A stretch of DNA of 64,000 bases from Octopus vulgaris (GCA_951406725.2 OX597831.1:81096001-81160000); one strand, 5' to 3'; positions 14,194-55,165 are shown, counted from the stretch's first letter. Made by a program: numbers and translations. Notes: generated by a model from the sequence alone, not told the origin.

Positions 14194-14515
14194 ATCAAAA
14201 TAAGCAATAAGTATATGCGAGGTAGGGTGGTACAATTGTTTCATGCTACTTAATTTTATTAAACACTGTAAGTATTACATCAGTTTTAAAATGTCGAGCA
14301 ATCTTCAGCCACTTGCTCGACATTTTAAAACTGATGTAATACTTACAGTGTTTAATAAAATGAAGTAGCATGAAACAATTGTATCACCCTACCTCGGATA
14401 TACTTGTTGCTTATTTTGATTATAATCGCCCCATTTGATTTATATGGATAATACCATACAAAATTCTGGTGCCTTTGACTTAAGTACCATATTCATCTGC
14501 ATCTAAATTTTGCTG
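14194..14515. mobile_element. (TA)n-flanked foldback element: arms 14194-14301 and 14313-14420, 11-nt spacer, ~95-nt one-sided tail; PLE-like inverted pLTR
   Basis: Arms are reverse complements with only a few mismatches; contains a hammerhead fold. Confidence 0.85.
14227..14312 (-). ncRNA. Type I hammerhead ribozyme, canonical core
   Basis: gugg-CUGAAGA-u-ugcu..agca-u-GAAA-C-aauu-G-UA^ccac: helix I 4 bp, palindromic ACAAUUGU helix III, GUA cleavage triplet (cut between 14231 and 14230). Confidence 0.8.
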
Positions 14516-14525
14516 ATATATATAT

Positions 14526-14667
14526 AAAATAATATGCTACAATTATACAATAGTCCAGATAAAACTCTGAGTTTCGGATGGCGAAGTGGAAATCCACAAC
14601 ACCATCTCTTCGGTTATTTGGCCATCCGAAAAACGCTATGAAAAAATACCGTTATTAAAGGGAAATT
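14526..14667 (-). mobile_element. (TA)n-anchored short element, second copy at 23524-23666; contains a hammerhead-like fold at 14555-14621
   Basis: Reverse-complement homology to 23524-23666; CCGAAGA..GAAA fold. Confidence 0.75.
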
Positions 14668-14767
14668 ACTGTTATAATTCCGCTACTTATATAAATTAAG
14701 ATTAAAAGTTCATAGTAAACACGTAAACATGGCTACTCATACGCTCACATGTCTGAAAAACGCTATG

Positions 14768-14955
14768 AATATATATATATATATATATATATATATATAT
14801 ATATATATAATAGAGAGAGAGAGAGAGAGAGAGAGAGAGAGATAGATAGATAGATAGATAGATAGATAGATAGATAGATAGATAGATAGATAGATAGATA
14901 GATAGATAGATAGATAGATAGATAGATAGATAGATAGATAGATAGATAGATAGAT
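14768..14955. repeat. (TA)n-(GA)n-(GATA)n compound microsatellite
   Basis: Direct reading. Confidence 0.97.
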
Positions 14956-16766
14956 GTACACACACATGTATGGATAAATGTATATATGTACGTATAGTAA
15001 GACTGAATAGTACATTTGTAATTTAATATCAGCAATGACTCATCCGAAATTCAAGATTATTTAAAATGATGTTTGGACCGTTTTTTGTGAAGCACTTAAA
15101 TATTTAGAGCTTAAAAATGCAGATTTCAACACAGTTTGTTTCGGTGCAACGTGAGAGACGAATGATTCAAAGAATGAAATAGTTAATGTTTTGTGGATGG
15201 TTAGAGATTATTGTGTCAGTTAGATGAACGGACAAGAAGAAAGAAAGATAGAGCGACAGAGAATGAAGCAGAGAAAGAATGAGAAGATGAGAGCGGGATG
15301 GGGTGTTGATATTCTATGACCTGCAGCCAAACGAAGAGTCCCAAAACTTTTCTGAGTAACAAAAGAATTTATAATGCCTGGAGAATTCGACTACAGAAAA
15401 TAAATGGCGAGACAAACGGAGAAAGAGAGGGAACGAGAGAGAGAGCGAGAGAGAGAGAGAGAGAGAGGAAGGAGAGAGAGAGAGAAGGAGAGCTGAAAGT
15501 GGTTTTATGTAAATGAAGCTGATTGTTACACGACATACTAAGAAGAGAAGAAACCTCTACAATTTATTTATTTGTTTGGTTGCTAATTGCTTTTGGACGG
15601 TGGACTTACTCTGATGACAACAAGATATTTGCAAACATCAAACATCTGCACTTTGATCAGATTGCAAACCAATGCCTGGAGGCTTGTTTGACGTCACTGA
15701 TAAATGTCTTAATTATAAGTTGAAGCAGTCAACAAATTGCGATTAGACTGGCAGAACTAGAGTAACAAATACACTTTTAACTTTATTTATTGCCGGAGCC
15801 AGTAAATATAAGGCATTGCCAATATTAGCCGGGTTTACTCGCCACCTTTTCCTTTCGTTTTCTAATGACAACTTGATGAATGCAATTTGCACTCAGAACT
15901 CTAATCTAACACACGTGTCTACTTTTACTGAAAGAATATCTCCAAACACCTACTCAGACAAATACTCACATAGAGGCATCTACGTGTATGTGTATGCATG
16001 AATGTATGTATGTATATATACATAATATGTGTGTGTGTGTGTGTGTGTATGTGTATACGAGGACACACACATATATATGTACAGAAATATATATACATAA
16101 TACATACATATATATATATATATATATATATATATTTATATATACACACATGTATAGATATATGCATAGATGTGTATATGCACATATGTGTCCATGTGTT
16201 TGTATGAGTGTGTGTGCATACATGTAAATATACACATGGTCACGATATAAATATATATATATATATATATATGCACATACACACACACACACTCACGCAC
16301 GCACTTGCATACATACGAGGCATATTCGCTGATGGCTTTCCGTATGTTGAAGCGGAATTTGTCACGTTCTCTCTTCGCAAACATGAGTCTTTGGAGGATG
16401 ATACTGAATGAGAGAGAAGTCGAGGCAGATAGGCTGAATAAGGGAGGGAGAGAGAGGAGGAAATTGATAACGAAAGAAGGAAGAAGGAAAGAAAAGTAAA
16501 TTAGATGTGTGAAATGTTGCTATCTTCATACACACACACACACACACACACACATACACACGCACACGTATATATTTTTTAGTATTGCAGTCTGGTCTGT
16601 GTTATGTAGCTATGATGTCACTACCGAATGTTAGCAGATATATTTAGTTAAGTAGTCTTTTTTTACGTCCTTCACACACATACATACAACCACATACATA
16701 CGCATATTCAAGTGCATGTTTATATACGCGCATACGCATTTATGTGCGTGTGTGTGTATATATATA

Positions 16767-17076
16767 TAATAGAAATATTAAAATTACTAAGTCTCTCTAA
16801 AGGAGATTACGGCAGCGTTACTGGATATTAATAGTTATCGCCATACTAATATGGCAGTCTATAAATATAAGACTAAAGCTGTCGCTGATTAGCTCCAAGA
16901 GGCCAGGTTCGTGTGTCATATAGCTAGCTAGAGGCGATGGCCTCTTGGAGCTAATCAGCGACAGTTTTAGTCTTATATTTATAGACTGCCATATTAGTAT
17001 GGCGATAAATATAAATATCCAGTAACGCTGCCGTAATCTCCTTTAGAGAGACTTAGTAATTTTAATATTTCTATTA
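16767..17076. mobile_element. (TA)n-flanked near-perfect palindrome: arms 16767-16905 and 16938-17076, 32-nt spacer, no tail
   Basis: 139-bp arms with about 3 mismatches by eye; TA repeats on both sides. Confidence 0.88.
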
Positions 17077-17135
17077 TATATATATATATGTATATATATA
17101 TATATATATATATATATATATATATATATATATAC

Positions 17136-52748: not shown

Positions 52749-52980
52749 ATATTTATATTTATATTAAGGGCATTATTATACATAAATGCCTCATGCTATG
52801 AGGACTCTTAATGTCAAAAGTTTTTTTTTTATTTTAAGAGTCCCTCATAGCACGAGGTATAGCGTGTGTAGTAATGCCCTTAATATTAATAAATATATTT
52901 TTAGGAATAATTAAACATTTTTCCTTTATGAGGTTTTTCACGCTGACTACTTGATAAATTCTTATAAAGATTTTATCCTA
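52749..52980. mobile_element. Foldback element: arms 52749-52811 and 52834-52896, tail to (TA)n at 52980
   Basis: attaagggcatta..cctcatgctatgaggactcttaa versus ttaagagtccctcatagcacgagg..taatgcccttaat. Confidence 0.75.
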
Positions 52981-53013
52981 ATATATATATATATATATAT
53001 ATATATATATATA

Positions 53014-53217
53014 TGAATGTTTGGAGGTGATGCACAGGTATTATATATTAGAAGAACTAAGGTACTCAGAAATCTGGATGGTTTTATATTTACAGAAGAA
53101 TCCACTAGAGTTGATGCAAGCGCTAATATATGATTTATAAAAAACGTGACATATTAATAAAAATCTGTAAATATAGAACCATCCAGATTTCTGAGTACCT
53201 TATTTCTTCTAATATAT
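53014..53217. mobile_element. (TA)n-flanked inverted element: left tail 53014-53042, arms 53043-53096 and 53164-53217
   Basis: ~54-bp inverted arms with few mismatches. Confidence 0.8.
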
Positions 53218-53432
53218 ATATATATATATATATATATATATATATATATGTATGTATATATATATATGTATATATATATTATATATATATATATATATAT
53301 ACACACACACACACACATATATATATATATATATATATATATGTATATATATATATATATATATATATATATATATATATATATATATATATATATATAT
53401 ATATATATATATATATATATATATATATATAT
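53211..53432. repeat. (TA)n-rich microsatellite
   Basis: Direct reading. Confidence 0.97.
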
Positions 53433-53643
53433 AAATACACACACATAGGAATAATTAAGATTCAGTTGAATTATGTACTTAGGCTGACACACCATGTCAG
53501 TCCGGTATTGTCCGCTCAGCTCGAAGTAAGGTAAATAAAAAGTAAATAAGTACCAAGGATGTCCAGTGGGCTACGCCCGTTTCAAGCGCGGCTCAATATA
53601 ATCGTCCAATTGCAAGCATTACATCAATTTGAAATATATATAT

Positions 53644-53983
53644 ATATTCTGTTGTGTCTGGGGAGAGTCATTCTCTTTTAGTGCCTTATAATTTAACACA
53701 CTCACCGGTAAAATTTCCACTCATTTCCTTCTTTATTTTTCTAAAATTTTCGTTGCGTCTTACAACTTTTTCAATAGAGAGTCAACAACTATTGAAAAGG
53801 TTGCAAGAGGCAACGGAAATTTTAGAAAAATATGGGAGGAAATGAATGGAAATTTTACCGGTGAGTGTGTTAGATTATAAGGCACGAAAAGAGCATGACT
53901 CTCTCTAACACAACAGAATATGCTTCAAGACACGAACTCACATAAAGAATCATGCAAACCGAATCTCCAAACGAAATGCGTAA
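53644..53983. mobile_element. (TA)n-flanked foldback element: arms 53644-53777 and 53789-53921, 11-nt spacer, tail 53922-53983
   Basis: ~133-bp inverted arms, moderately diverged; hammerhead-like fold near the centre. Confidence 0.85.
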
Positions 53984-54264
53984 ATATATATATATATATA
54001 TATATATATATATATATATATATATATATATATATATATGTGTGTGTTTGTGTGTGTAGTGATGGTTTGATGTCTACTTAATTTGATAGTCCCAGGAAAG
54101 GGAAGAATGCTACTGCTATTTAGGCCCAGGAAACACCGTTTTCAGTTGGCCATGTGACACAAGCGTTCTGTGTCCTTATGTTTTCAAACAGGGGAGATAA
54201 GCATCTCCACCCAGCAAAGCCAACAACCAGACACTAGTTTCAGAGTCATTACTCTTCATCTGTC

Positions 54265-55165
54265 TGGAGTAGCTTGGCTTAGGGATTAATCTTCTCTCTT
54301 CGTTCCTTTGCGCCACATGGGCTCAACTCTCCACCCCTCTTTATCTAACCTCCTCTCCTCGCCTCTCTCACCCGCCTCTCTCCCTCTCACACCTACTTCC
54401 TCACACCCACCTCTCCTGTTTTGCACCGACTTCTACTTCTCTTAATTCCTCCCCTTCTCTCTTCTCTTCACTCCTACCCACCACTCCTTCCCCTTTATCG
54501 CCACCCTCCCTCGTAACCCCATCCCAGCCCTACACATTCCAACCCCACCTTCCCTATCCTTCCCATCCCATATACCCCCTCTACCTCACCCTCTGCCTAA
54601 CCACATACCTCACTTCTACCCCACCCTCAGCCTAACCCACACCCCACCCTTGCTTTCCCCACCTCCCAACACCATCACACCACACAACACATCACATCAC
54701 ACCACGCACACACTAGCACTGACCACTTCCCAGTCCCACATTTTCACACCTGCATATACACACACGCACACATGAAGGTCGCCATGGAGTAGCTTGGCTT
54801 AAGGATTAATCTTCTCTCTTCGTTCCTTTGCGCCACATGGGCTCAACTCTCCACCCCTCTTTATCTAACCCATGCGCACATACATACTCTCCTATACACA
54901 TGCAAGCGCCCCTTCGTTTTGGGATCACCACTACTTTTATTATCTCCCCTTCATCCTAGCTCTCCTGTGTGACCCTTCTGTCGGGCATTCGCCATGATAG
55001 ATTGCTAGCCACTACACATTCTTTATTTTCTCTCTTTGTTTCCCTCTGTGTTCCTTTCTGTGGAAGAGCGTAGGCTCGAAACGTTATAGACGGTTTCACT
55101 TCCCGAGCGTTAAACTAATGTATCTGTTTGTTGTCTACAACACCCGTCTTCGTCGTTTGTTTTGA
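54265..55165 (+). mobile_element. Penelope-like (Neptune-type) element 3' end: GIY-YIG C-terminus in two tandem copies, pyrimidine-rich UTR, hammerhead-like pLTR
   Basis: 54283-54348 reads GLIFSLRSFAPHGLNSPPLFI-stop (I+.L.+..P.GLN terminal motif), repeated 520 bp later; motif CUGUGGA-a-gagc-guag-gcuc-GAAA-cg-UU at 55058-55085. Confidence 0.7.

What the first reader, a model, noticed from the sequence alone, without database searches (positions are those of the whole stretch)
14194..55165. Families of (TA)n-targeted, hammerhead-bearing foldback retroelements with a one-sided tail
Seen: at least six sequence-unrelated short inserts sit in or against (TA)n tracts as inverted repeats (14194, 16767, 25916, 52749, 53014, 53644). 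Five have an extra 30-135 nt tail on one arm only, and three carry hammerhead folds reading outward toward the tail. Further TA-anchored half elements (14526, 23524, 25458, 53447) carry complete or partial folds. Known: Penelope-like elements have minimal type I hammerheads with palindromic helix III in their pLTRs, form inverted pLTRs with a 3' extension, and Neptune-type elements associate with microsatellites. Inference: a dense, diverse population of ultra-short PLE insertions or non-autonomous retrozyme-like elements that a repeat annotator would call MITEs.
Basis: partly seen in the sequence, partly recalled or inferred. Interest (0 to 1): 0.85.

Follow-up and report, generated by a model that had tools for sequence, protein, structure and literature searches.

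The report
Penelope-type stumps and retrozymes, two-start insertions
The six small mirror-image inserts are short, cut-off insertions of Penelope-like jumping genes (four families still join a Penelope-type coding region, two are small non-coding hammerhead repeats), and their long-arm/short-arm shape likely arises because each insertion is copied from two start points in the RNA, a known design seen here in new families.

Summary
Observation confirmed. All six foldbacks are real, multi-copy and nearly unrelated. Every family has two fixed 3' ends (proximal P, distal D; 35-147 nt apart = the tail), while the inversion point differs from copy to copy. Longer copies of four families run into Penelope-like (PLE) coding sequence: 25916 and 14196 look Hydra-type, 53014 and 53648 Neptune/Nematis-type; so does half element 14527 (Hydra-type). 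16767 and 52749 are pieces of non-coding 362-nt and ~490-nt tandem monomers with a hammerhead, i.e. retrozyme-like. All seven families carry a type I hammerhead-like fold. At non-TA sites, 13 of 22 inverted insertions have 9-13 bp target duplications (0 of 154 mismatched pairs). Inverted pLTR, one-sided tail, (TA)n targets and minimal hammerheads are published PLE traits, so this is new members of a known kind. Added here: inverted insertions carry one P and one D end in 29 of 32 cases chosen without regard to the tail, and the retrozyme-like monomers show the same PLE junction signature. (TA)n targeting is strict for only some families. Cleavage and circular RNA are untested. The scan noted a similar case in a shark.

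The parts
14196..14312 (-). Family 14196, inverted arm ending at the proximal (P) end on (TA)n; holds a complete canonical type I hammerhead (CUGAAGA core 14302-14308; GAAAC-AAUU-GUA 14231-14242)
14313..14516 (+). Family 14196, second arm starting in helix II, running through P (14419) and the 97-nt tail to the distal (D) end on (TA)n. The family extends upstream through about 1.4 kb of AT-rich UTR into a Hydra-type GIY-YIG/thumb coding end
14527..14752 (-). Half element, family 14527: 3' end of a Hydra-type PLE, ends at P on (TA)n; hammerhead-like fold 14563-14613 with CCGAAGA core (U4C) and U17; family tail 74 nt
16769..17074 (.). Head-to-head piece of a 362-nt non-coding tandem monomer; both arms end at D (a rare D+D case). 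The family hammerhead (UUGAUAA, U3-A8 core; GAAACAUGUC) lies upstream of the part kept here; family tail 56 nt
23524..23664 (+). Second copy of family 14527, 5'-truncated, ends at P on (TA)66; fold at 23578-23628
25458..25700 (-). Half element of an abundant family ending on (TA)n; hammerhead-like fold 25557-25588 with CUGUUGA core (A6U), palindromic helix III, U17; link to an ORF not tested
25919..26349 (-). Family 25916, long arm ending at P on (TA)n, with complete canonical hammerhead 25975-26052 (CUGAUGA; GAAAC-AUAU-GUC)
26350..26545 (+). Family 25916, short arm plus 140-nt tail to D on (TA)n; longer copies join an RT + C-terminal GIY-YIG ORF (674 aa open in L214)
40375..40430 (.).
52749..52981 (.). 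Head-to-head piece (P left, D right; tail 88 nt here, about 100 in the family) of a ~490-nt non-coding tandem monomer whose canonical hammerhead (CUGACGA; palindromic 10-nt helix III) lies upstream of the part kept
53014..53211 (.). Family 53014: left arm with 35-nt tail (D), right arm ending at P; fold cut at its core (53093-53125; family core CUGAAGA...GCAA, A13C). Longer copies join a Neptune/Nematis-type RT-GIY-YIG ORF
53447..53633 (-). Half element, 5'-truncated inside helix II (3' half of the fold at 53572-53583); end motifs resemble family 14196
53648..53977 (.). Family 53648: P arm left (intact U3-A8 minimal hammerhead 53741-53777), right arm plus 60-nt tail to D. Family joins a decayed PLE RT-GIY-YIG ORF; often inserts in non-repeat AT-rich DNA with 9-13 bp target duplications
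54880..55165 (+). Relative of the 25458 family; hammerhead-like fold 55058-55089; 3' end interrupted

Best explanation
These are 5'-truncated, head-to-head insertions of at least seven Penelope-like families (five join PLE coding sequence, two are non-coding hammerhead monomers), each with two fixed 3' ends, and each insertion is likely built from two cDNAs, one started at the proximal and one at the distal end. Shown: family membership, the two ends, variable inversion points, ~12-bp duplications, hammerhead-like folds, ORF links, tandem monomers. Inferred: a GIY-YIG/RT dimer cuts both strands of (TA)n or AT-rich DNA about 12 nt apart; each free 3' end primes reverse transcription on the element RNA, one at P and one at D; both cDNAs stop early (the P one usually gets further) and are joined head-to-head through microhomology. 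The result is an inverted repeat whose D arm alone carries the P-to-D segment (the tail). The 362-nt and ~490-nt monomers keep the same cis signals and would be moved in trans by PLE enzymes; their partial tandems fit a multimeric or circular template. Hammerhead cleavage does not set the junctions.
For: Two discrete ends in all seven families. P+D pairing in 29 of 32 inverted insertions picked without using the tail: 11 of 12 from upstream or arm queries of three coding families, 9 of 10 for the 52749 monomer, 9 of 10 met by chance in other loci (p=0.011 against 50%). P and D ends are about equally common overall, so independent choice would give about half; pooled binomial p about 1e-6 (worked by hand). 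153 of 167 in all junctions (biased by tail-containing queries). The P arm reaches further 5' in 80 junctions, D in 29, equal in 44, and in 6 of 6 informative chance pairs: each arm then holds sequence the other lacks, so neither arm is a fold-back copy of the other. Duplications of 9-13 nt in 13 of 22 non-repeat P+D sites against 0 of 154 mismatched pairs (the matches can include 1-3 element bases). ORF links. Frangieh 2024 (PMC11167929) showed in vitro that a PLE protein cuts and extends both strands, starts RT at two internal sites that bound the tail, and is predicted to be a dimer.
Against: No intermediate was observed; the mechanism rests on genomic anatomy and on a lizard Poseidon element in vitro, where start-site use did not differ between strands. 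Exceptions exist: 12 D+D and 2 P+P of 167 (most D+D are inner ends of partial tandems), including the window's own 16767. Many copies show only one arm (F52749 18 single-ended of 31 clusters). Tails of 60-147 nt are far longer than the published 30-40 nt. No autonomous partner was matched to either monomer: the 3' references share no real similarity. The 14196 link covers only thumb and endonuclease, and the 53648 link is continuous in one locus (L279), with the ORF end shared by a second (L280); a further ORF copy (L390) had no 3' end in the stretch fetched. Search hits are the top 30 of 40 scored copies per query, so they lean to young or window-like copies.
Confidence: 0.7

Rival explanations
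1. Same elements, other mechanism: a self-primed hairpin intermediate (as proposed on an antisense template by Arkhipova 2013) is resolved by staggered endonuclease cuts, one strand at P and one at D, and then joined to the target.
For: Would also give obligate P+D pairing and arms of unequal 5' reach. Craig 2021 ascribes the tail to EN-mediated resolution; Arkhipova 2013 reads junction palindromes as self-priming. Junction overlaps of 1-8 nt are common.
Against: The PAc protein starts RT at the two tail boundaries on a linear sense RNA. The 56-bp insert at 40375 has arms that share no sequence (11-nt D end, 45-nt P arm), which leaves no hairpin.
Confidence: 0.2
2. The 362-nt and ~490-nt monomers are not an independent retrozyme lineage but solo pLTR units of autonomous PLEs that were not sampled; the tandems are re-insertions into themselves.
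For: PLEs form partial tandems, and the 2026 preprint finds Xenopus retrozymes related to pLTRs. Only about 30-60 loci per family were seen.
Against: In the 52749 loci seen (about 20 of 30; output cut), the sequence upstream of the monomer start was the previous monomer's end or unrelated flank, never a shared ORF; period 485-501 nt in 6 loci. L284 holds about 2.6 units of 362 nt at 98% identity plus an inverted unit. No PLE-like coding hit lay next to either array in L283 or L284.
Confidence: 0.25
3. MITE or foldback DNA transposons that target TA.
For: Short inverted repeats in TA tracts; foldback-biased searches return copies of similar size.
Against: With single-arm queries the centres and arm lengths vary widely; arms are 3' ends of RT-coding elements; duplications are about 12 bp; one-sided tails.
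Confidence: 0.02

Closest known systems
EN+ Penelope-like elements with inverted pLTR and tail (Arkhipova 2013 PMC3846280; Craig 2021 PMC8557442; Frangieh 2024 PMC11167929)
   Same: 5' truncation, head-to-head inverted copy, tail on one end, 8-13 bp duplications, hammerhead near the 3' end, RT plus C-terminal GIY-YIG; Asn-rich insert between RT and EN as in Adineta Pen2a.
   Different: Tails 35-147 nt rather than 30-40; the tail is nearly obligate on exactly one arm rather than 'optional'; most inserts are under 350 bp.
Hydra clade PLEs (Craig 2021)
   Same: Families 14527 and 14196 have the CxCx5C linker, CxxC and CxH, no CCHH; 25916 has CxxC/CxH, and its closest database proteins carry RW[RK]/KWR and DKT; (TA)n targets.
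   Different: No linker finger seen in 25916 (Asn-rich stretch instead); N-termini not recovered; no tree built.
Neptune/Nematis-type PLEs
   Same: 53014: GxKF, DKG, CX4CXXC linker, CCHH-type GIY-YIG. 53648: CX4CXXC linker and GIY-YIG.
   Different: Copies are decayed; clade not resolved by a tree; 53648 is only loosely TA-directed.
Non-LTR retrozymes (Cervera and de la Pena 2020 PMC7229834; Li et al. 2026 bioRxiv 10.64898/2026.07.22.740005)
   Same: Non-coding tandem monomers with one type I hammerhead each; the monomer folds better than shuffles (z -4.1 for the 362-nt unit); duplications longer than 4 bp.
   Different: Here they carry the PLE junction signature (P/D ends, inverted arm), for which I found no description in the passages and searches I saw; ~490 nt is above the 150-450 range; arrays are short; circular RNA not shown.
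Minimal PLE hammerheads (Cervera and de la Pena 2014 PMC4209133)
   Same: Short palindromic helix III, U3-A8 core variant, pairs of motifs 100-700 bp apart on opposite strands.
   Different: Family-wide U4C (known from a viroid) and A13C cores (not seen in the passages read; Lunse 2017 was not held).

Membership tests
EN+ Penelope-like elements | RT and C-terminal GIY-YIG endonuclease in one ORF upstream of the 3' repeat | tested here: met
   25916: 674-aa open frame in L214 with RT motifs read by eye, Pfam GIY-YIG E=0.005 (below the curated cut-off), 100 relatives at E<=1e-32. 14527. 53014. 53648: decayed. 14196: thumb and EN only.
EN+ Penelope-like elements | 5' truncation, inverted 5' copy, tail on one end | tested here: met
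   All seven families.
EN+ Penelope-like elements | Short variable target-site duplication | tested here: met
   13 of 22 non-repeat P+D sites with 9-13 nt against 0 of 154 controls; all 13 from families 53648 and 16769; not readable in TA tracts.
EN+ Penelope-like elements | Type I hammerhead in the pLTR | tested here: met
   Fold and core in all seven families; 5' core kept in 34 of 34, 20 of 26, 20 of 20, 29 of 31, 27 of 33, 40 of 56 (U3-A8) and 29 of 32 (U4C) copies, some loci counted twice. Structure only.
EN+ Penelope-like elements | Full pLTR-ORF-pLTR copy and RT tree placement | not tested
   No full-length intact copy recovered; no tree built.
Hydra clade | CxCx5C linker, no CCHH, CxxC and CxH in EN | tested here: met
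   14527 and 14196; 25916 has CxxC/CxH but no linker finger was seen.
Hydra clade | RWK and DKT motifs in the RT N-terminus | tested here: inconclusive
   Region lost in the copies fetched; present in close database relatives of the 25916 ORF (4 of 5 read had DKT, the fifth DKTN).
Neptune/Nematis | CX2-5CxxC linker, CCHH, DKG | tested here: met
   53014; 53648 has the linker, DKG region not recovered.
Non-LTR retrozymes | Non-coding tandem monomers of about 150-450 bp, one type I hammerhead each | tested here: met
   16769: 362 nt. 52749: 485-501 nt, slightly above range.
Non-LTR retrozymes | Self-cleavage and expression as circular RNA | not testable with these tools
   Only assembled contigs were offered.
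MITE / TIR DNA transposon | Fixed symmetric TIRs, constant interior, short fixed TSD, matching transposase | tested here: not met

The most novel reading that the evidence does not exclude
Animal non-LTR retrozymes are integrated by Penelope-like enzymes through the same two-start reaction as the coding elements: one dimer uses both RT start sites on one RNA, one per DNA strand, so every inverted insertion has one short and one tailed arm. This genome holds tens of thousands of such junctions across Hydra-type, Neptune-type and retrozyme families, some with family-wide non-canonical cores (A13C, U4C, A6U).
Probability: 0.5. Interest if true: 0.62.

Novelty: new member of a known kind. Interest (0 to 1): 0.42.

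Why it matters
The anatomy is published, so the class is not new. Two points are useful. First, how PLEs make inverted repeats with a one-sided tail is still open; the near-obligate P+D pairing gives a sharp prediction for the existing in vitro assay. Second, that retrozymes borrow PLE enzymes has been argued from co-occurrence and pLTR similarity; here retrozyme-like monomers carry the PLE junction signature itself. In practice, these inserts (10 insertions of the seven families in 400 kb, roughly 70,000 genome-wide, a rough figure) can be mislabelled as MITEs or unknown repeats, and each insertion into (TA)n would lengthen the tract.

Tried and rejected
Rfam: the window scan returned 326 weak matches; the 150 listed were all miRNA models on microsatellites or hairpins, none a hammerhead (176 not shown). 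Scans of the two monomer arrays found no ribozyme family, so the folds rest on my descriptor and alignments. An HDV-like or twister-like reading of the 52749 unit (recalled motifs) was dropped once the canonical hammerhead appeared upstream. The right arm of 25916 starts exactly at the predicted cleavage site, but only 10 of 334 arm starts lie within 3 nt of it (7 of 46 in family 53014), so cleavage as the cause of junctions was rejected. A fixed 5' end for family 14196 suggested vanished with a single-arm query. RNA: no RNA holder listed; contigs of three runs guessed to be RNA and of one run of unknown kind covered the 362-nt unit but cannot show ends, strand or circles. Pfam gave only sub-threshold GIY-YIG hits (3 of 10 ORF pieces) and nothing for 4 database relatives. 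Candidate folds at 47203 and 51657 had no relatives among the loci held and stay unexplained. The unselected sample is 400 kb; a larger one was not obtained. Lunse et al. 2017 on PLE hammerhead variants was not held; supplements of Craig 2021 and of the 2026 preprint were not read and may list these families or cores. Repbase and Dfam cannot be searched here.
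Full report
Setting. The window is G000:C18:81096001-81160000 of a 2.80-Gb animal assembly in 227 contigs. It is 38% GC and about 12% microsatellite, with SINE and LINE fragments. Size and repeats look octopus-like (inference; a named relative of one ORF is from Argonauta).

Observation. All six inverted repeats are present at the stated places. 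Tails in the window are 97, 140, 88, 35 and 60 nt; 16767 is symmetric. Three complete hammerhead folds are present (14231-14312, 25975-26052, 53741-53777, all on the minus strand), plus a cut one at 53093-53125. Rfam does not detect them. A strict descriptor finds 15 folds at 9 of 40 unselected 10-kb stretches against 0-2 in 8 shuffles. In that sample 18 of 45 inverted repeats touch (TA)n (background 3.5%), 10 asymmetric and 3 symmetric.

Families. Each element, and half element 14527, returned 40 of 40 scored candidates as copies on many contigs, from 1,314 to 4,080 first-look candidates (not copy numbers). I analysed the top 30 loci of each search. Ten insertions of the seven families lie in the 400-kb sample, about 70,000 genome-wide as a rough figure. 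The 3' references are almost unrelated to one another.

Two ends, variable centre. Every family ends at one of two fixed sites, P or D: P lies 36-178 nt and D 110-247 nt after the predicted cleavage site, and tails are 35-147 nt. Queries made from a whole foldback return copies with similar centres, a selection effect; single-arm queries show centres and arm lengths that vary from about 30 nt to kilobases. In L214 the same anatomy has a 2.9-kb arm and a 187-nt inverted arm. So the inversion is made at each insertion.

What the families are. [quoted passage not shown] Its best relatives are ~700-aa proteins with RW[RK]/KWR and DKT motifs, the Hydra signature of Craig 2021. 14527: three long copies give RT and EN with a CxCx5C linker. 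14196: upstream of about 1.4 kb of AT-rich UTR lies a CxCx5C GIY-YIG end; 8 of 30 loci hold both an in-register EN-like hit and the window's 3' part on one strand (L321, L326-L328, L330, L332, L339, L344, with the chimeric L334/L337 left out). Its RT core was not recovered. 53014: three copies share 3.3 kb with GxKF, DKG, CX4CXXC and CCHH motifs. 53648: one locus runs from a decayed RT-GIY-YIG ORF to the hammerhead, and a second shares the ORF end; another ORF copy lacked the 3' end in the stretch fetched. 16769: young (95-100% identity) 362-nt tandem monomer with a U3-A8 hammerhead. 52749: 485-501-nt monomer with a canonical hammerhead and a 10-nt palindromic helix III. A third monomer family (359 nt, canonical fold, z -4.7) turned up in the unselected sample with the same head-to-head array: left end and right end about 45 nt apart in the monomer, both on TA (L391).

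Hammerheads. Cores are family-wide: CUGANGA (25916, 14196, 52749), U3-A8 (16769, 53648), U4C (14527), and GCAA for GAAA (53014). Helix III is palindromic or nearly so in each family, as in dimer-acting PLE motifs (Cervera 2014). In 53014 one helix II pair is C-G in 10, U-A in 7 and U-G in 3 of 20 distinct sequences that matched the pattern (related copies, perhaps one event). Activity is untested. Junctions do not cluster at the cleavage site (10 of 334), in line with Frangieh 2024, where uncut RNA was the main template.

Target. Ends followed by (TA)4: 34 of 34 (25916), 27 of 34 (14527), 63 of 87 (53014), 92 of 135 (14196), 38 of 107 (53648), 25 of 53 (16769, inner tandem ends included) (loci found by two searches are counted twice; the 52749 figure is unreliable because its D site was set short). 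At sites without simple repeats, 13 of 22 P+D insertions have 9-13-nt duplications, mode 12, against 0 of 154 mismatched pairs; pairs with a repeat in either flank were dropped before this count.

Pairing rule and mechanism. Inverted insertions have one P and one D end in 29 of 32 cases chosen without the tail (exceptions 2 D+D, 1 P+P; pairs with an unclassified end left out), and in 153 of 167 overall. Even the 56-bp insert at 40375 is an 11-nt D end facing a 45-nt P arm. The P arm usually reaches further 5' (80 against 29, 44 equal), so each arm holds sequence missing from the other, which excludes a plain fold-back copy of the first cDNA. I infer two cDNAs primed from the two ends of a staggered cut, one at each start site, joined by microhomology (overlaps of 1-8 nt are common). 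The rival is staggered endonuclease resolution of a self-primed hairpin. Against my reading: the window's own 16767 is D+D, many copies show one arm only, and no partner was matched to the monomers.

Literature seen. Craig 2021 (PMC8557442): passages and the Hydra section. Frangieh 2024 (PMC11167929): main text, parts 1-2 of 4. Cervera 2014 (PMC4209133): parts 1-2 of 4. Cervera 2020 (PMC7229834): passages. Li 2026 preprint: parts 1 and 3 of 5. Arkhipova 2013 (PMC3846280): passages. Perreault 2011 (PMC3088659): passages. Bonar 2026 (PMC13282606): part 1 of 3 and passages; it lists 31 recently active PLE families in O. vulgaris and has no mention of hammerhead or ribozyme. Review PMC6765202: passages. 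Searches returned no paper that, in what I read, describes octopus hammerhead families, obligate P+D pairing or PLE-type inverted junctions of retrozymes; the library omits most subscription papers, Repbase and Dfam. Non-autonomous PLEs with head-to-tail copies are known (MRC1). Hammerhead numbering, the NUH rule and PLE motif reading by eye are recalled knowledge.

Verdict. A real and correctly read feature; new members of a known kind, with a quantified pairing rule and retrozyme-like passengers as the extra. Interest 0.42.

Noticed in passing
L391:2098-4765 (G000:C1, from 20000001): Young array of a 359-nt monomer with a canonical hammerhead: about 2 inverted units facing a longer direct array, both ends on (TA)n, ends about 45 nt apart in the monomer. 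A third retrozyme-like family with the PLE junction.
   Followed up: partly
window 54060-54270 (-) and 51648-51678 (-): Two more hammerhead-like folds with a CAGAUGA core; the 54060 element has TA-adjacent relatives in the loci held (4 hits), the 51657 one none.
   Followed up: partly
L393:1885-2032, L398:3688-3801, L410:49-211, L429:8302-8716: Another abundant foldback family with a 60-80 nt one-sided tail on (TA)n, met 4 times in 400 kb; probably the same kind, not characterised.
   Followed up: no
L403, L413, L415, L416, L427: Five further hammerhead folds of other families in the unselected sample; L416 resembles family 25916 and L427 resembles 16769.
   Followed up: no
L334 (G000:C13:52738756-52741921): Chimeric locus: a Neptune-like RT fragment directly upstream of the Hydra-type endonuclease end of family 14196; probably one PLE inserted in another.
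   Followed up: no
window 57274-60404 (-), 55723-56202 (+), 22774-23292 (+), 34554-34892 (+): LINE fragments: an 842-aa endonuclease/RT-like frame at 57274-59799 and shorter RT or C-terminal pieces; labels by eye, no profile search run.
   Followed up: no
window 47120-47260 (+): CUGAUGA...GAAAC-GU-AUC arrangement without relatives among the loci held; may be chance or an old element.
   Followed up: partly
window 24272-24386 (+): 80% match to the 53447 half element, a second truncated copy next to a SINE.
   Followed up: partly
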